This document shows, one piece after another, positions 118-15,642 of a stretch of DNA of 29,043 nt. Below the pieces are notes generated by a model. That model had not been told where the DNA came from. It saw only the letters and a list, made by a program, of their open reading frames with translations, and did not search any database. The DNA is taken from positions 1 to 29,043 of IMG/VR virus record IMGVR_UViG_3300009175_000062; one strand, given 5' to 3'. The first letter of the stretch is position 1; the number at the start of each line of letters is the position of its first letter. The stretch is from a virus (taxonomy: Duplodnaviria > Caudoviricetes). The position numbers were made by a program, and so were the translations under genes.

Positions 118-1692
118 ATGCATTTAATGAAAAACAGCTATATCACGGTCACGGATCAGTTCTGCGGAGCTGGAGGATCTTCCCAGGGAGTTCGTAATAT
201 TTCTAAAATGAATGGTGGCGGTGCTGAAGTTAAGCTGGCGCTTAATCATTGGAAACTTGCTATTGAAACTCATAATACGAACTTCCCTGAAACAATACAT
301 GATTGTACGGATATAAGTGCAGCTGATCCACGTCGGTATCCTTCAACGGATATCCTTATAACCTCACCTGAATGCACAAATCATACCCTTGCTAAGGGTT
401 TAAAGAGAGTCAAGTCACAGATTGATCTTTTCTCATCAGGCAAACTTGACCCGGCTGCGGATAGATCTCGTGCAACAATGTGGGATGTTCCCCGATTCGC
501 TGAGTATCATAATTATAATATAATCATTGTTGAAAATGTTGTGGATGCCAGGGAATGGTCTCTTTTTCCTGCATGGTTACAGGCCATGCATCTTCTGGGA
601 TATAACCATAAGTGCGTATACCTCAATTCCATGTTTTGTCATCCTACACCCCAAAGCAGGGATAGGATGTATGTTGTTTTCTGGAAAAAAGGTAATCGGG
701 AACCTGATCTTGATTTCCGGCCAGCTGCCCGGTGTCCGAAATGTGAAATTGACATAAAGGCTATTCAGCGCTGGAAGCATCCGGATAAGCAATCTGGAAA
801 ATTCAGCAAACAGTATATCTATGTTTGTCCCAAATGCGCATGCGATGTGAAACCTTATTATTATGCTGCCTTCAATTGTATCGATTGGACTGATATCGGA
901 ACCCGGATTGGAGATCGTAAAAAACCTTTGAATGAAAATACAACCAGACGGATCGAATATGGATTTAAAAAACATGGTAACCGGCCATTAATGGTAGTCA
1001 ATTATTCACCCGGTTATTCCAGGCCATTATCCCACCAATTTGGAACTATCACAACCGATGATCATCATTCAATAGTGACTCCATTCATAATTAATGATCA
1101 GCAAAGTACCGGTGTTGGATTTCGGGTTAACGGAATTGACGAAGTAATACCAACAGTCAGCACTAATCCTGGATTTAAATTGGTGATGCCATTCGTAATA
1201 AAAGAAGAACACTCACAAAATATTGAGATTATCAGACCGGTTTCAGGATCACTCCAAACCCAAACCACACGTCAGAGCATGGCCTTAGTAACTCCATTTA
1301 TGGTTGAAATGAAAAAGACCTCCAATTCCCGTGCTATATCTGATCCATTATCTACGATGACTTCCGTCGCTTATCATGGCTTAGTAACTGATGAATCATG
1401 GAAATCATTCATCAGTTATTTCTATGGCCAATCACAGTCATCAGGGATTAATGATCCATTGGGAACCGTATCCACAAAAGATCGGTTTGCAGTTGTGAAT
1501 TATCAGGAACCACGGATTGAAGATTGCTATTTCCGGATGTTAAAACCGCATGAAATAAAACTGGCCATGGCTTTCAATCAGGAATATGTTGTTTTAGGAT
1601 CACAAAAAGACCAGGTCAAACAACTTGGTAACGCCGTAACGCCACCGGCTATGCAGTGGCTCGTTGAACGAGGAATTGAATCATTACAATAG
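118..1692 (+). CDS. dcm: Phage C5-cytosine DNA methyltransferase
   Basis: Motif I DQFCGAGG, catalytic SPEC, motif VI ENV, Q.R.R (PQSRDR) and C-terminal QLGNAV; CPKC..CPKC insertion; repeated variable region. Confidence 0.92.
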   Translation: MHLMKNSYITVTDQFCGAGGSSQGVRNISKMNGGGAEVKLALNHWKLAIETHNTNFPETIHDCTDISAADPRRYPSTDILITSPECTNHTLAKGLKRVKSQIDLFSSGKLDPAADRSRATMWDVPRFAEYHNYNIIIVENVVDAREWSLFPAWLQAMHLLGYNHKCVYLNSMFCHPTPQSRDRMYVVFWKKGNREPDLDFRPAARCPKCEIDIKAIQRWKHPDKQSGKFSKQYIYVCPKCACDVKPYYYAAFNCIDWTDIGTRIGDRKKPLNENTTRRIEYGFKKHGNRPLMVVNYSPGYSRPLSHQFGTITTDDHHSIVTPFIINDQQSTGVGFRVNGIDEVIPTVSTNPGFKLVMPFVIKEEHSQNIEIIRPVSGSLQTQTTRQSMALVTPFMVEMKKTSNSRAISDPLSTMTSVAYHGLVTDESWKSFISYFYGQSQSSGINDPLGTVSTKDRFAVVNYQEPRIEDCYFRMLKPHEIKLAMAFNQEYVVLGSQKDQVKQLGNAVTPPAMQWLVERGIESLQ

Positions 1693-1714: not shown

Positions 1715-2194
1715 ATGAACAATCACTTAAAAGCAAAGATGATGGTGGATCAGCTTCCGCCATTAACAGGTAAATCATTCAAGAATGGTTTTTACCAGGG
1801 AGTCATTATGGCTCTCAACGAAGAAAATAAACAAAAACCTAAGTTTGACTGGAAGTCAATCAACACCCTGGAGGATGCACTGGCTTATACAGGAAAGAGG
1901 CCGGAAGATGTTTACAATGTTTCGGACCCGGTGCGTCGTCAAGCTCTCGATATCCTTGAATTTGTCATTGAATTAATCGGAGAAGGATTCGTCGCTGATT
2001 ATACAAACCCTGATCAGAAGAAATGGGTTCCATTGTTTAATCTTTCGTCCGGGTTCGTTTTTTCGTACTCGCTTTACAGCTATTCGGACGCGGGTGCGGG
2101 GTGCGGTTCTCGCCTTTGCTCAGAAAACGAAGAAAAGAGTAATCATATCGGAATAAAATTCCAGTCTTACTGGATGGATTTAATTACCAAATAA
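1715..2194 (+). CDS. DGR target protein 1 (about 159 aa, contains VR1)
   Basis: Contains VR1; paralogous to the next ORF (PEDVY, NPxQxKWxPxFNLSSGFVFS...CGSRLC); ATG at 1715 preferred over the TTG that overlaps the MTase. Confidence 0.85.
   Translation: MNNHLKAKMMVDQLPPLTGKSFKNGFYQGVIMALNEENKQKPKFDWKSINTLEDALAYTGKRPEDVYNVSDPVRRQALDILEFVIELIGEGFVADYTNPDQKKWVPLFNLSSGFVFSYSLYSYSDAGAGCGSRLCSENEEKSNHIGIKFQSYWMDLITK
2041..2119 (+). repeat. DGR variable repeat VR1
   Basis: 79-nt ungapped match to TR; 15 mismatches, 13 of them at TR adenines. Confidence 0.95.
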
Positions 2195-2586
2195 TGATCA
2201 TTATGAAAACTGAAAAAAAAGAAAAAACAAAAGATGCATTCGACTTCAGATCAGTTGAATCATTTGAAAAAGAACTTGCAAAACAAGGCAAGAAAGCAGA
2301 GGATGTCTATCATCCTTCAGACGCTCCGCACATTGTCGCTCAAAAGAAAATTGAGTTCCTCTATGACGTGATGAGAAATGGAGTGATCATGGATCATGCT
2401 AACCCCAACCAGAGGAAATGGCTCCCGGTATTTAATCTTTCGTCCGGGTTCGTTTTTTCGAGCTCGGATTACCTCTATTCGTTCACGTGTGCGTATTGCG
2501 GTTCTCGCCTTTGCCTTTTTGAAGAGGAAATGTCGGACTATGGCGCAAATCAATTTATCGATTTGTGGGAAACGCTGATCAGATAA
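2194..2586 (+). CDS. DGR target protein 2 (130 aa, contains VR2)
   Basis: Contains VR2; translationally coupled to target 1 (TAATG). Confidence 0.85.
   Translation: MIIMKTEKKEKTKDAFDFRSVESFEKELAKQGKKAEDVYHPSDAPHIVAQKKIEFLYDVMRNGVIMDHANPNQRKWLPVFNLSSGFVFSSSDYLYSFTCAYCGSRLCLFEEEMSDYGANQFIDLWETLIR
2436..2514 (+). repeat. DGR variable repeat VR2
   Basis: 79-nt ungapped match to TR; 13 mismatches, 12 of them at TR adenines. Confidence 0.95.
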
Positions 2587-2622
2587 ATTAAACCGAAGGT
2601 TGTATGCTGCATGGCCGTCAGT

Positions 2623-2701
2623 TCTTTCGTCCAGGTTCGTTTTTTCGAACTCGAATTACAACTATTCGAACACGAATGCGAATTGCGGTTCTCACCGATG
2701 C
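2623..2701 (+). ncRNA. DGR template repeat (TR)
   Basis: Intergenic, directly upstream of RT; six AAY codons in the VR reading frame (LSSRFVFSNSNYNYSNTNANCGSHRC); 3' end CGGTTCTCACCGATGC vs VR CGGTTCTCGCCTTTGC is IMH*/IMH-like. Confidence 0.95.
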
Positions 2702-2800
2702 GATAAACCGCGGCATAAACCCTGCCAACAGTTGCAAAAAATGACATTTTAAAATGGATCATTGGTACCGAAAGAGAAAATGATCTTTGATAAGCAAAGC

Positions 2801-3754
2801 ATGAAAAGGATAGGTAATTTATACACACAGATCTGCAGTATTGAAAACTTACGACTGGCCGATTCAATTGCCCGAAAAGGCAAGGCAAAGCAGCCCGGAA
2901 TCATCGCACATGACAAAGAAAGAGAGGATAACATTGAACGACTTCATAAATCACTCATGAATAAAACGTACCGGACCTCTGAGTATACCACCTTTACGAT
3001 CCATGAGCCAAAGGAACGACTGATATTTCGTCTGCCGTATTATCCTGACAGAATCACTCATCATGCCGTGATGAACGTCCTGGAGCCATTGTTCGTTTCC
3101 ACCTTCACCGCAGATACATACAGTTGCATAAAGGGACGCGGGATCCATGGAGCAGTCCGGGCGGTTAAAATGGCACTCCGGGATAAACAGGGCACTGCAT
3201 ACTGCCTTAAACTTGATGTGCGTAAGTTCTACCCGAACGTGGATCATAATGTGTTAAAAGAACTCCTGCGCAGAAAAATAAAGGATCAGGATCTGCTCTG
3301 GCTTCTTGATGAGATTATCGATTCCACCGACGGCCTGCCGATCGGCAACTATCTCAGCCAGTATTTCGCAAATTTCTACCTCACTTATTTTGATCACTGG
3401 CTCAAGGAGCAAATGAACGTGAAGTATTACTTCAGGTATGCCGATGACATGGTAATCCTCGCTGCCGGCAAACCGGAGCTTCATCAGCTTATGAGTGAAA
3501 TAAGGAATTATCTCGAGACAAATTTAAAATTGTGTGTAAAGGATAACTACCAGGTATTCCCGGTGGATGCCCGTGGGATTGACTTCGTTGGTTATGTTTT
3601 CTTTCATTCTCATACACTCCTTCGTAAAAGCATCAAACAAAACTTTGCCCGCATGATAGCACGTCGCCGGAATCCGGCTTCCATCGCATCATATAACGGC
3701 TGGGCAAAACACGCGAACTGTAAAAATCTACTTAAAAAACTACTCGATGAATAG
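2801..3754 (+). CDS. DGR reverse transcriptase (about 317 aa)
   Basis: MKRIGNLY start, PKERLI, PDRITHHA, LKLDVRKFYP, DGR-type LPIGNYLSQ and RYADD; no maturase or HNH domain. Confidence 0.95.
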   Translation: MKRIGNLYTQICSIENLRLADSIARKGKAKQPGIIAHDKEREDNIERLHKSLMNKTYRTSEYTTFTIHEPKERLIFRLPYYPDRITHHAVMNVLEPLFVSTFTADTYSCIKGRGIHGAVRAVKMALRDKQGTAYCLKLDVRKFYPNVDHNVLKELLRRKIKDQDLLWLLDEIIDSTDGLPIGNYLSQYFANFYLTYFDHWLKEQMNVKYYFRYADDMVILAAGKPELHQLMSEIRNYLETNLKLCVKDNYQVFPVDARGIDFVGYVFFHSHTLLRKSIKQNFARMIARRRNPASIASYNGWAKHANCKNLLKKLLDE

Positions 3755-4052
3755 ATTCGGCGAATTCAATATTAAAGTCAAACGGAAGGTTTTTGTTGGA
3801 GGAAAGATCAATATGGCGAAGATACTGGGTAAGGAGATTATTATTCTTGACTTCAAAATAGAAGAATCAAAGTGTTTCAAACAGAAGGGATCCGGAATGT
3901 GTCTTTGCCTTCAAATCTCAATTGAAAGTGAAAAACATATCGTTTTCACCTCGTCAAGTTATCTCATCGAGATGATCGAGCAGGTCCCGTCAGCAAGTTT
4001 TCCGTTTGCCACCATTATCGTTGAAGAAAATAAAGGATTCAAATTCACTTGA
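3747..4052 (+). CDS. Small beta-rich protein coupled to RT; candidate non-Avd DGR accessory factor
   Basis: Overlaps the RT stop by 8 nt; alternating hydrophobic strands (IIILDFKI, LCLQI, HIVFTSS, FPFATII). Confidence 0.6.
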   Translation: MNRFGEFNIKVKRKVFVGGKINMAKILGKEIIILDFKIEESKCFKQKGSGMCLCLQISIESEKHIVFTSSSYLIEMIEQVPSASFPFATIIVEENKGFKFT

Positions 4053-5778: not shown

Positions 5779-5813
5779 GTCCTTTATAAAGGTCCAACGC
5801 ACAATTAATATTG
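5779..5813 (+). promoter_or_regulatory. Late promoter copy 1 (GTCCTTTA-N19-TAATATTG)
   Basis: Motif shared by five sites; upstream of the protease. Confidence 0.75.
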
Positions 5814-5832
5814 CCCCATCAATATTAATTGT

Positions 5833-6711
5833 ATGTTGGATCGAATTTTTAAACTCCTCTCTTCAGACTGGTTAATCCATCAGGATACAGCGATATCTTA
5901 TTTACCGGTATTGATATCCTTTCTCAATGGACAGAAGTTGGATGTTGTGGCCGGCTCCCTAAAACCACCTCAGCGAATTTCCGGGTTCCGCAGTGATGCA
6001 GATCCTGAATGGGTTGATCAGGATAACCTTTCCGACATATCAATTCCTGAAAACTCAATTGCCGTCATCCCGATCCAGGATACTATCCTATCATGGAAAA
6101 CTCAAAGAATGGTAGGCCAGATCAAGCAGGCCGATGCTAACCCGCAGATCTGCGCCATTCTGTTTTTGGTATCATCTCCCGGGGGCATGGTTTCTCAGCT
6201 TGATATTGCGGCTTCTGCCATTAAGAATTGTAGCAAACCAACAGTGGTTGTTATTTCACAGATGGCTGCATCAGCCGCAATGTGGCTTTCTTCCGCAGCA
6301 AATTATCGGATCGCCACCTCCCCTATTGATGCGATAGGATCCATCGGTACAAAGACCTCCTTCATGGATATCAATGGCTTCTTGAAAGAGAAGCTGAATA
6401 TCTCCGTGTATGAGATCTATGCAACATTATCGACCAAGAAGGAAGAGGAGATCCGTGAGCTTCTTAAGGGCAACGACAAACCCATTGTTGCGAAACTCGA
6501 CTTCATCAATGCAATTTTTCACAAAACCATTCAGGATAACCTGGGAATTCCTGAAGGATCTGAAGTCTTTACCGGTGCGATCTATTTTGCTGAACAGGCC
6601 AAGAGCCTTGGGCTGATCAATGAGATCAACACCATTGATTATGCGGTCAATTTCACTTATGAGCTCGGACTAGCTAATAAAATCAAGTCAAACCCAATAT
6701 TTAACAACTAA
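5833..6711 (+). CDS. S49/ClpP-like prohead protease
   Basis: SSPGGMV, MAASAAMWL and IGSIGT motifs; directly upstream of the capsid gene. Confidence 0.88.
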   Translation: MLDRIFKLLSSDWLIHQDTAISYLPVLISFLNGQKLDVVAGSLKPPQRISGFRSDADPEWVDQDNLSDISIPENSIAVIPIQDTILSWKTQRMVGQIKQADANPQICAILFLVSSPGGMVSQLDIAASAIKNCSKPTVVVISQMAASAAMWLSSAANYRIATSPIDAIGSIGTKTSFMDINGFLKEKLNISVYEIYATLSTKKEEEIRELLKGNDKPIVAKLDFINAIFHKTIQDNLGIPEGSEVFTGAIYFAEQAKSLGLINEINTIDYAVNFTYELGLANKIKSNPIFNN

Positions 6712-9871: not shown

Positions 9872-10279
9872 ATGAAAAACACGATCATAAATTTTTTTCG
9901 ACACGACCGGACATTCAAATCTGCCGTAAAGCTCTATCATGAGCATGGGAATAAAATTTCCCTTAAAAAGAGATTGAATGTGGAAAATGAAAATGAATTC
10001 CTCAAAGGAGTCCTCTTTGAAGAGTTACGCGCAATGGCCGGCATCCATCCGCAAATTTTCAGTACCATGATTTCAAACCAGGTTGTTCCCGAAACAAAGT
10101 CAATGGCTGTCAACGAAATCAAGGCACCGGTTGACTTAAAGAAAGCCAGAAAACCGGCAGTTAAGAAGGATGCAAAGCCAGCCGCCAAGAAAGAAGCGAA
10201 ACCTTCCATCAAGAAGGATTCAAAACCGGCGAAAGAAACAAAACCAAAAGGTGGCATCGGGGATTCCCCAAAAAAATAG
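9872..10279 (+). CDS. Hypothetical protein with Lys/Ala/Pro-rich tail; zero-frame product of a -1 frameshift pair
   Basis: Ends TCC CCA AAA AAA TAG; repeated KKxAKPA units. Confidence 0.75.
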   Translation: MKNTIINFFRHDRTFKSAVKLYHEHGNKISLKKRLNVENENEFLKGVLFEELRAMAGIHPQIFSTMISNQVVPETKSMAVNEIKAPVDLKKARKPAVKKDAKPAAKKEAKPSIKKDSKPAKETKPKGGIGDSPKK

Positions 10280-14467: not shown

Positions 14468-14641
14468 ATGAAAGCCACTACAAACACTAAAGAACAGAAC
14501 TTAGTTGACATTCTCGCTGCTGAATTAGATGAAATCTATTATCCAGGCTATTCTGAAGAGATCATGAACTCTGATCCTCTGAAGTTCCAATTTGAACTTG
14601 ATGAGTTCAAAGGCCAGTTGGCCGAAGAAATTAAAAAGTAA
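14468..14641 (+). CDS. Small acidic protein (57 aa), not in the ORF track
   Basis: MKATTNTKEQNLVDILAAELDEIYYPGYSEEIMNSDPLKFQFELDEFKGQLAEEIKK; bounded by a leader and a terminator. Confidence 0.75.
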   Translation: MKATTNTKEQNLVDILAAELDEIYYPGYSEEIMNSDPLKFQFELDEFKGQLAEEIKK

Positions 14642-14650
14642 GAAGTACGG

Positions 14651-14677
14651 CGGCAGTCATAGACTGCCGTTTTTTTT
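14651..14677 (+). terminator. Rho-independent terminator
   Basis: CGGCAGTC-ATA-GACTGCCG followed by T8. Confidence 0.9.
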
Positions 14678-14720
14678 ATGCTCGTCCTGCTCGCAAGTTT
14701 AAATGCGTTGGCAAATCCAG

Positions 14721-14914
14721 GGCCATGGAGAGCGATGAGAATTTACAAAGTTATGCCATGGGAAAATATTTTTCGCTAAGCGTGACCGCCTAAAGGCATT
14801 GTCACCTTTCAGGATCATTCAAATTCACTGCCGCGAATTATGACCTGATCACTTGCTTAAAATTTTCTCCGAGGCATGCTGGTACTGGTAAATTTCATTT
14901 ACTCACCATCGGCC
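14721..14914. promoter_or_regulatory. Fold-back leader of cassette 2 (radC)
   Basis: GGCCATGGAGAG..AATTTAC..ATGCC..GAAAAT pairs with ATTTTC..GGCAT..GTAAATT..CTCACCATCGGCC. Confidence 0.7.
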
Positions 14915-14940
14915 ACACAGCTGATTAAAACTATCAGATT

Positions 14941-15642
14941 ATGAAAACTACTTATTCGAACACCATCCCGATGAGATCCTGGTCAGAAGATGATCTCCCA
15001 TCTGAAAAATTACTACTCAAGGGCAAAGCAAGCCTTTCAGATGCTGAGCTCCTGAGCCTGATCATAGGGTCCGGAATCCAGGGGAATAACTCACTTGATA
15101 TCGCTAAAAAGGTACTGGCATCATCGGCAAATAACCTATCTGATCTCTGGCGTCGCTCCTTCACAGACCTGCGGCAGATAGAAGGCATTGGCAAAGGGAA
15201 GGCTGTTCAGATCCTTGCCATGATGGAGCTGGGGCGCAGACGCTCTGAAAGTGAGGTATTCGCCAAGGCAAAGATTTCAACATCCAGGGATGCCTACGAT
15301 ATTCTTCATGCAGTACTGGGGGATCTACCATATGAAGAATTCTGGATGCTGATCCTTAACAAGGCAAACAAAGTGATCCGCAAAATAAAGATATCTGAAG
15401 GCGGTATCTCCGGAACGGTCGTAGATCCAAAGAAGATCTTTAAGATATCACTCGATTTTCACGCCTCCAGTATTATTCTCGGGCACAATCATCCAAGCGG
15501 AAACCTTCAGCCCAGTGAAGCGGATATCAAGATCACGAAAAAGCTCAAGGATTCGGGAATTCTTCTCGACATATCAGTACTGGATCATCTGATCATCGGA
15601 GATGACCGATACTATTCATTTGCAGATGAAGGGGCGATTTAA
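14941..15642 (+). CDS. radC: RadC family JAB-domain protein
   Basis: LSDAELL, HhH GIGKGKA, EEFW, HNHPSG...PSEAD, LDHLII. Confidence 0.95.
   Translation: MKTTYSNTIPMRSWSEDDLPSEKLLLKGKASLSDAELLSLIIGSGIQGNNSLDIAKKVLASSANNLSDLWRRSFTDLRQIEGIGKGKAVQILAMMELGRRRSESEVFAKAKISTSRDAYDILHAVLGDLPYEEFWMLILNKANKVIRKIKISEGGISGTVVDPKKIFKISLDFHASSIILGHNHPSGNLQPSEADIKITKKLKDSGILLDISVLDHLIIGDDRYYSFADEGAI

What the first reader, a model, noticed from the sequence alone, without database searches (positions are those of the whole stretch)
1715..4052. DGR diversifying two tandem small, non-tail proteins in the early region
Seen: the TR (2623-2701) has 18 adenines. VR1 differs at 13 adenines plus 2 other positions, and VR2 at 12 adenines plus 1 other. 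The two VRs carry different substitutions at the AAY codons (YSLYSYSDAGAG vs SSDYLYSFTCAY), so each was mutagenised independently. Known: adenine-specific TR-to-VR mutagenesis with a GxxxSQ/YADD RT defines DGRs (Bordetella BPP-1), whose typical phage targets are large receptor-binding tail proteins with a C-terminal VR. Here the targets are 130-160 aa paralogues with no signal peptide. They sit beside a DNA methyltransferase, upstream of the first late promoter, and each VR is followed by about 23-24 more codons. Inference: these are intracellular hypervariable binders, e.g. anti-defence or host-takeover factors, rather than tropism determinants.
Basis: partly seen in the sequence, partly recalled or inferred. 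Interest (0 to 1): 0.88.

Follow-up and report, generated by a model that had tools for sequence, protein, structure and literature searches.

The report
Phage mutator targeting small early proteins
A lake phage carries a genuine targeted-mutation cassette (a DGR) aimed at the same short stretch of two small neighbouring proteins encoded among its replication genes rather than its tail genes; surveys have already catalogued this cassette type, and the proteins likely act as variable binders inside the infected cell, which remains untested.

Summary
The layout is common: 68 of 80 related viral loci show two or three VRs. It is already catalogued. A locus with a 77%-identical RT is a row of Roux 2021's non-structural cluster PC_00007, Wu 2018 lists the layout, and Benler 2021 and Dahlman 2025 proposed a defence-related role. 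This scan also found it before on other DNA. Added here: the same protein family is the remote second target of tail DGRs in LoVEphage-type, Versailles and crAss-like phages. In 14 of 14 near-complete phages the TR matches only this family. The predicted fold is helical with a VR hairpin, and no lectin match was listed. Long/short pairs and natural fusions suggest a heterodimer (weak model support). An OB-fold-like ORF follows the RT, and no Avd was found. A related strain varies at TR adenines; this phage's own contigs do not. The anti-defence function is unshown, and the methyltransferase neighbour is not conserved.

The parts
118..1692 (+). C5 cytosine DNA methyltransferase (neighbour, not a conserved part of the cassette)
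   Evidence: PF00145 E 7e-23; directly upstream in 2 of 49 related loci
1715..2194 (+). Target 1, 159 aa, long first member of the pair; PC_00007-type family
   Evidence: phrog_11581; A1 profile 125 bits
2041..2119 (+). VR1, internal (24 codons follow)
   Evidence: 13 A + 2 non-A mismatches to TR
2194..2586 (+). Target 2, 130 aa (127 aa from ATG 2203), start overlapping the stop of target 1
   Evidence: AF2 model pLDDT 83
2436..2514 (+). VR2, internal (23 codons follow); covers the predicted beta-hairpin
   Evidence: 12 A + 1 non-A mismatches; strands E86-90 and E95-99 in the model
2598..2610 (+). 5' strand of a predicted 12-bp RNA duplex closing the TR (cPRT-Stop-like)
   Evidence: covariation in 53 distinct motif pairs; BPP-1 counterpart in Handa preprint
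2623..2701 (+). Template repeat with IMH* end; six AAY codons, about 2e9 possible peptides
2710..2721 (+). 3' strand of the predicted TR-closing duplex
2801..3754 (+). DGR reverse transcriptase, 317 aa, intact, GNYLSQ and YADD
   Evidence: PF00078, phrog_1423 E 3e-126; 77% identical to the RT of L033, a Roux clade 1 DGR
3747..4052 (+). 101-aa basic ORF overlapping the RT stop; predicted OB-fold-like, candidate RT accessory
   Evidence: present after the RT in 68 of 80 viral loci; AF2 pLDDT 89; best VIA rows mostly OB folds, Z 6.1 and 5.6; Atlas structural hits inside RT-domain clusters

Best explanation
This is a DGR whose template matches a ten-codon variable stretch in two small paralogous proteins encoded in the phage's replication region, and these proteins are likely non-virion binders that act inside the infected cell against a changing host protein. 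Shown by sequence: TR, two independently changed VRs, an intact RT, no Avd match, and adenine-position variation in related phages. Inferred from BPP-1: the TR RNA, closed by a conserved duplex, is reverse transcribed with errors at A and replaces each VR, probably helped by the OB-fold-like ORF in place of Avd. Predicted: each target is a small helical scaffold displaying the VR as a beta-hairpin, and the long and short targets likely form a heterodimer with two variable hairpins. My pick for the ligand is a host defence or regulatory protein (counter-defence or takeover). My odds: real DGR 0.97, non-virion about 0.8, heterodimer about 0.5, counter-defence or takeover about 0.45.
For: DGR anatomy. 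Conservation: 75 of 80 viral RT loci have TR-VR pairs (61 with two VRs, 7 with three, 7 with one); their full-length targets are 121-180 aa. Activity in relatives: near-identical phages differ at TR adenines in 3 of 7 groups (13 of 26 pairs), e.g. 12/43 TR-A sites vs 0/127 other VR sites and 1/4420 outside. A related strain in run X9 has 7 of 7 listed VR2 differences at TR adenines (p 1e-5). Non-tail: in 14 of 14 records at least 90% complete, the TR matches only genes of this family; two of them carry a separate second DGR with a 481- or 755-aa terminal-VR target. In Versailles, BI-TP1 and crAss cr56_1 a family member outside the structural module is a second VR (14/0, 15/0, 18/0 A/non-A) of the TR that also matches the tail gene. 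None of 69 neighbour proteins (64 family representatives, 5 L001 genes) showed a PHROG 'tail' match among the best five listed. Roux 2021: PC_00007 only 1.6% predicted structural. Selection on the fold: proline at AAY sites 1 vs 10.9 expected in 621 codons. Pair: the first target is longer in 48 of 49 adjacent pairs, and position labels need 4 changes vs 28.8 in shuffles (quick tree). Two-domain fusions: 20 of the best 150 representatives, L122 and L139, G001. Complex model: weak support, 0.53 vs best control 0.01, runs agree in at least 86% of contacts, partner pLDDT at least 77 (in calibration 18 of 157 solved complexes and both passing mismatches of 215 passed at 0.60 or under).
Against: No functional, expression or virion evidence. 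No match to a family of known function. A 2026 gut-virome preprint found no DGR target among known anti-defence proteins. This phage's own contigs show no VR variant in 7 of 8 runs laid (contigs drop rare variants). The window ends in a tape-measure-like ORF, so its tail-tip genes could not be checked for a remote VR. MTase adjacency is not conserved. The window's two targets group together on long branches (support 92) rather than with the A and B types, and single-copy members exist in the three gut phages checked, so a heterodimer is not obligatory. The complex controls did not include a homodimer or paralogue. GenBank labels the Versailles member 'tail protein', although it lies between NinB and the replisome organizer.
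Confidence: 0.5

Rival explanations
1. The targets are small virion-attached receptor-binding modules encoded outside the tail operon, so the DGR still switches tropism.
For: Roux 2021 leaves this open for PC_00007. In gut phages the same TR and VR peptide serve both the tail protein and this family. One GenBank label says 'tail protein'.
Against: Early or replication-region location in unrelated phage groups. Similarity to the large tail-like targets is confined to the 29 VR columns. Two of 14 phages keep a separate classic DGR as well.
Confidence: 0.17
2. The targets act in phage-versus-phage conflict inside the cell (superinfection exclusion or blocking of rival prophage proteins) rather than against host factors.
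For: Carriers include many prophages and integrase- or transposase-bearing records. Variable binders would suit rapidly changing rival proteins (inference).
Against: In L001 the cassette lies in the rightward run of genes after the repressor-like gene, beside the primase; such operons are usually silent in lysogens (general knowledge). A crAss-like phage also carries the family.
Confidence: 0.2
3. The targets are ordinary accessory genes mutated as passengers; the variation is tolerated rather than useful.
For: No function is known. No variant was seen in this phage's own contigs. 4 of 7 groups of near-identical relatives show no VR change.
Against: The cassette is kept with no other target in 14 of 14 near-complete phages, across many Bacteroidota hosts (46 of 80 genome loci), with intact frames and proline depletion.
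Confidence: 0.1

Closest known systems
Roux et al. 2021 (PMC8144416) target cluster PC_00007 'Phage_other', DGR clade 1, RT cluster t122
   Same: L033 (contig 46,664 bp, RT 317 aa, 77% identical to this RT, two family targets) matches their table row by dataset id, contig length and RT length, with two PC_00007 targets. Listed VR positions 0.64-0.82 of the gene fit 0.61-0.84 here.
   Different: They give no function or fold in the passages I saw. The id of the record identical to this window gave 0 hits in two tables that were cut when stored.
Wu et al. 2018 (PMC5758913) entries 120 (Galbibacter, TG-TG-TR-RT) and 121 (Pedobacter arcticus); lineage 3, VR class CLec3, code f4
   Same: Same order, gene spans of about 157 and 124 codons, short TR, about 24 codons after the VR, no Avd, similar VR motif. 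Judged from the table and the VR peptides, not by a profile search.
   Different: Wu files them as CLec3 but notes that they align poorly to other CLec3 targets, and lists no accessory gene in the columns shown. Here a conserved post-RT ORF and a predicted helical scaffold are found.
Second, distal DGR target of Quimbyvirus/LoVEphage-type phages (Benler 2021, PMC8008677; Dahlman 2025, PMC12629997)
   Same: BI-TP1 gp84 belongs to this family (E 3e-25), is a VR of the tail DGR, and lies among methyltransferases and a tRNA ligase as Benler describes. Both papers suggest a role in phage-host conflict. That it is Benler's very gene is inferred from the neighbours.
   Different: There one DGR serves the tail and a single remote copy with a 107-113-nt VR. 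Here the DGR has moved beside two copies, uses a 79-nt TR and has no known tail target. Benler calls the target a C-type lectin.
Bordetella phage BPP-1 DGR (mtd-avd-TR-brt)
   Same: Adenine-specific TR-to-VR differences, IMH/IMH* difference, RT motifs, and an upstream-downstream duplex like the cPRT Stop (11 bp with one unpaired base in BPP-1).
   Different: No Avd match, internal VRs, two small non-tail targets, an OB-fold-like ORF after the RT.

Membership tests
DGR | RT with GxxxSQ and YxDD | tested here: met
DGR | TR-VR pair with mismatches at TR adenines, VR in a coding frame | tested here: met
DGR | IMH differs from IMH* at the 3' end | tested here: met
   constant TR-vs-VR differences at the 3' end here and in 33 distinct relatives; function not tested
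DGR | Ongoing variation at TR adenines | tested here: inconclusive
   met in relatives; none seen for this phage in contigs of 7 of 8 runs; no raw reads available
BPP-1-type DGR | Avd accessory gene | tested here: not met
   no Avd family among 37 window proteins in Pfam; Wu lineage 3 lacks Avd
BPP-1-type DGR | VR at the very C-terminus of a large tail protein | tested here: not met
   targets 159 and 127-130 aa with 24 and 23 codons after the VR
BPP-1-type DGR | Duplex between sequences upstream and downstream of the TR (cPRT Stop) | tested here: met
   motifs found in 92 of 121 small-target loci; 294 of 318 free cells pair vs shuffle mean 233, max 252; shuffles ignore kinship
Roux PC_00007 | Target family and RT cluster membership | tested here: met
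   through L033, whose targets are in alignment A1; their own clustering was not rerun
C-type lectin DGR target | CLec fold around the VR | tested here: inconclusive
   model is helical with one hairpin; no CLec chain among the listed rows, best Z 4.1, rmsd 3.3, 62 aligned; profile likeness to tail-like targets only over 29 VR columns. An unlisted family is not excluded.
Phage anti-defence or host-takeover protein | Binding or inhibition of a host defence or essential protein | not testable with these tools
   no anti-defence library or assay here; PADLOC holds defence genes and gave only 2 single-member weak hits among 93
Virion receptor-binding protein | Presence in the particle | not testable with these tools
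   only indirect evidence against
OB-fold / SSB-like protein (ORF 3747-4052) | OB fold | tested here: inconclusive
   top VIA rows mostly OB folds but Z only 6.1 (rmsd 3.2, 69 aligned) and 5.6 (2.8, 67); Foldseek not significant; Atlas lead PF17427 on 44% of one cluster

The most novel reading that the evidence does not exclude
Bacteroidota phages keep an intracellular 'nanobody library': a family of about 5,000 sequence clusters with a non-lectin helical scaffold, working as a two-hairpin heterodimer, is hypermutated by a dedicated Avd-less DGR that uses an OB-fold helper, and it neutralises host defence or regulatory proteins. This would be a DGR target that is neither a lectin nor a surface protein.
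Probability: 0.25. Interest if true: 0.88.

Novelty: new member of a known kind. Interest (0 to 1): 0.5.

Why it matters
The cassette is catalogued, but the job of non-tail phage DGR targets is an open question in the papers I read. This work ties the freshwater and soil small-target DGRs to the second target of cultured gut phages (BI-TP1/LoVEphage type, Versailles) and to prophages in cultured Flavobacterium, Chryseobacterium, Elizabethkingia and Sphingobacterium strains, so the question can be tested directly. If the scaffold is not a lectin, the near-universal CLec rule for DGR targets has an exception, and a roughly 125-aa soluble diversifiable binder becomes available. The OB-fold-like ORF is a concrete candidate for how Avd-less DGRs work.

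Tried and rejected
Word-index homologue search with target 2 found only 2 proteins, and tblastn with it found nothing in GenBank phages; profile and less divergent queries were needed. No solved-structure relative by sequence or fold; BFVD gave only uncharacterised phage proteins, best TM 0.64, E 1.2e-3. These absences do not show a new fold. Pfam and PADLOC: no family beyond single weak hits among 93 members. No RNA holder listed. No remote VR or third family copy in the window or in the 7.2 kb upstream in L001. The promoter scan was at chance level (18 vs 15.2); the motif I tried as a late promoter had 8 matches vs 4.6 expected (9 of 100 shuffles). The TR region folds no better than shuffles (z -0.79), and Rfam gave only one sub-threshold match. 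No strong hairpin after the VRs. The careful target tree did not finish; the quick tree is used. The RT tree interleaves small-target and tail-target DGRs (3 changes, FastTree, midpoint root; 3 loci without a full RT and 4 without a VR left out), so no direction of target switching is claimed. Literature: a search for DGR + OB-fold + reverse transcriptase + accessory + Avd returned 0 papers, and searches listed no functional test of this family; the library lacks most subscription papers. Four fetched papers and the LoVEphage and BI-TP1 papers showed no mention of this target family in the passages seen. Rejected: chance repeat, simple gene duplication without a DGR (mismatches track TR adenines), and MTase linkage as evidence of anti-defence.

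Full report
Observation. The TR at 2623-2701 has 18 adenines; VR1 (2041-2119) differs at 13 of them plus 2 other bases, VR2 (2436-2514) at 12 plus 1 (Fisher p about 3e-9 and 4e-9), and the VRs differ from each other at 13 sites, 12 opposite TR adenines. Four mismatches are shared by both VRs; three of them lie in the constant IMH end seen across relatives. Six AAY codons give about 2e9 possible peptides. The RT (2801-3754) is intact. The targets are 159 and 127-130 aa, acidic (pI 5.6-5.7), overlap stop-to-start, and show no hydrophobic leader on a simple scan. The 'late promoter' was not demonstrated.

Setting. The 29-kb contig is the whole record held. It encodes a head protease, holin and endolysin and ends inside a long tape-measure-like ORF (my label), so tail-tip genes are missing. 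L001 is identical over 13,751 nt and adds a repressor-like gene, a sigma-like regulator and a primase upstream, which places the cassette in the replication run. Holders are freshwater and lake metagenomes. The closest RTs in genomes (77-78%) are in Prolixibacteraceae MAGs, with others across Bacteroidota, so the host is probably a Bacteroidota.

How common. Of the best 80 viral RT loci, 75 have TR-VR pairs: 61 with two VRs, 7 with three, 7 with one. Several are redundant copies and one is the window itself. Four of the five without have the RT at a contig end. The summed mismatches are 2151 at A and 89 elsewhere, though my filter required an A bias. Of 80 genome loci, 46 target this small family, 30 target other proteins (mostly 430-1070 aa with a terminal VR and a longer repeat), and 4 showed no pair. 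The family has 5,027 clusters at 50% identity.

Activity. Near-identical phages differ specifically at TR adenines in 3 of 7 groups (13 of 26 pairs). In run X9 a related strain shows 7 of 7 listed VR2 differences at TR adenines, and in VR1 four at TR adenines plus a return to the TR base at the one VR1-specific non-A mismatch (20 further rows were not shown). In the other 7 of 8 runs laid (of 10 listed), the contigs of this phage match the window without differences. Contigs hide rare variants, so current activity here is open. Proline is depleted at variable codons (1 vs 10.9 expected), which suggests selection on the fold, although a bias of the RT itself is not excluded.

Not a tail target. 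In 14 of 14 records at least 90% complete (of 19 searched), the TR matches only genes of this family. Two of the 14 also carry a separate DGR with a 481- or 755-aa terminal-VR target (not annotated, and the 64-kb record could hold two prophages). In three gut phages a single family member outside the structural module is a remote second VR of the tail DGR: Versailles (14 A, 0 non-A), BI-TP1 gp84 (15, 0) and crAss cr56_1 gp09 (18, 0) (contexts). Neighbour families are replication, integration, regulation and head genes, with no 'tail' match among the best five listed for 69 proteins. The C5 methyltransferase is directly upstream in only 2 of 49 loci.

Structure and pairing. The AF2 model of target 2 (93 sequences, pLDDT 83, lowest over the VR) is four helices with a hairpin in the VR. 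No solved fold stands out, and likeness to the large tail-like targets is limited to the 29 VR columns. So the lectin label looks inherited from the VR motif, but the test is inconclusive. The first target is longer in 48 of 49 adjacent pairs and first/second types cluster (4 changes vs 28.8), though the window's two group together on long branches. Two-domain fusions occur in 20 of the best 150 representatives and in genomes with both VRs inside one frame. The complex model gave weak support: 0.53 vs best control 0.01, at least 86% contact agreement, partner pLDDT at least 77; in calibration 18 of 157 solved complexes and both passing mismatches (of 215) passed at 0.60 or under. No homodimer control was run.

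Machinery. No Avd was found. A 101-aa basic ORF overlaps the RT end in 68 of 80 viral loci and occurs in 40 of 46 small-target and 13 of 30 other genome loci. Its model (pLDDT 89) ranks mostly OB folds first at modest Z, and similar domains lie within RT proteins in the Atlas. A 12-bp duplex between 2598-2610 and 2710-2721 covaries across 53 distinct pairs (the outer positions were fixed by my search pattern, and shuffles ignore kinship). It resembles the BPP-1 cPRT Stop, which the Handa preprint surveyed only in Avd-bearing DGRs (passages).

What is known. Roux 2021 (two sections, passages, supplement rows; two tables cut when stored): PC_00007 'Phage_other', non-structural/unknown, 1.6% predicted structural; L033 matches one of its rows. 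Wu 2018 (parts 2-5 of 8, supplement rows): entries 120 and 121, lineage 3, noted as aligning poorly to other CLec3 targets. Benler 2021 and Dahlman 2025 (passages) describe distal second targets near methyltransferases and suggest conflict roles. Macadangdang 2024 (passages) did not describe this family in what I saw; its supplements are closed. The Lifelines preprint (passages) found no DGR on known anti-defence proteins. Earlier notes of this scan report the same cassette in other genomes and gave me the Wu, Roux and RT-partner leads; I checked these against the tables and with my own searches.

Verdict. A real DGR of a catalogued kind, so a new member rather than a new system. The best reading is a dedicated diversifier of small, probably non-virion binders that likely act as a pair inside the cell. 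The ligand and the anti-defence role are inference. Interest 0.5: ordinary as a locus, but the cross-links to cultured phages, the possibly non-lectin scaffold and the candidate Avd substitute make an open question testable.

Noticed in passing
window 5779, 9806, 17120, 25701, 26413 (+): A 7-nt motif has five plus-strand copies, four of them shortly before gene starts in the structural region (5833, 9872, 17152, 26428); a possible late-promoter element, but the total count is not above chance.
   Followed up: partly
window 5793-5840: 21-nt inverted repeat, 90% complementary, 6-nt gap, just before the head protease gene.
   Followed up: no
window 14941-15642: RadC/JAB (UPF0758) gene inserted among structural genes.
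   Followed up: no
window 10139-10230: 24-nt tandem units encoding a lysine/alanine/proline-rich stretch in the 135-aa ORF at 9872-10279.
   Followed up: no
G001:C1:55482-56285 and 14536-15221: One TR serves four VRs: two adjacent targets and a remote fused two-domain gene about 40 kb away.
   Followed up: partly
G003 (L175) and G015 (L205): Records carrying two different DGRs, one for the small family and one for a large terminal-VR target.
   Followed up: partly
L081:10181-10762 (phage Versailles): Gene annotated 'tail protein' lies in the recombination/replication module and is the remote second DGR target; the label is probably transferred through the shared VR.
   Followed up: yes
runs X3, X4, X5, X7: A second phage with a related DGR cassette co-occurs in the same lake runs (28-33 kb contigs matching only the VR and TR ends).
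   Followed up: no
L022, L023, L024, L025, L026, L028, L034, L035, L043, L052: No post-RT ORF of the family was called in these loci although sequence continues past the RT in most, so the candidate accessory is not universal.
   Followed up: no
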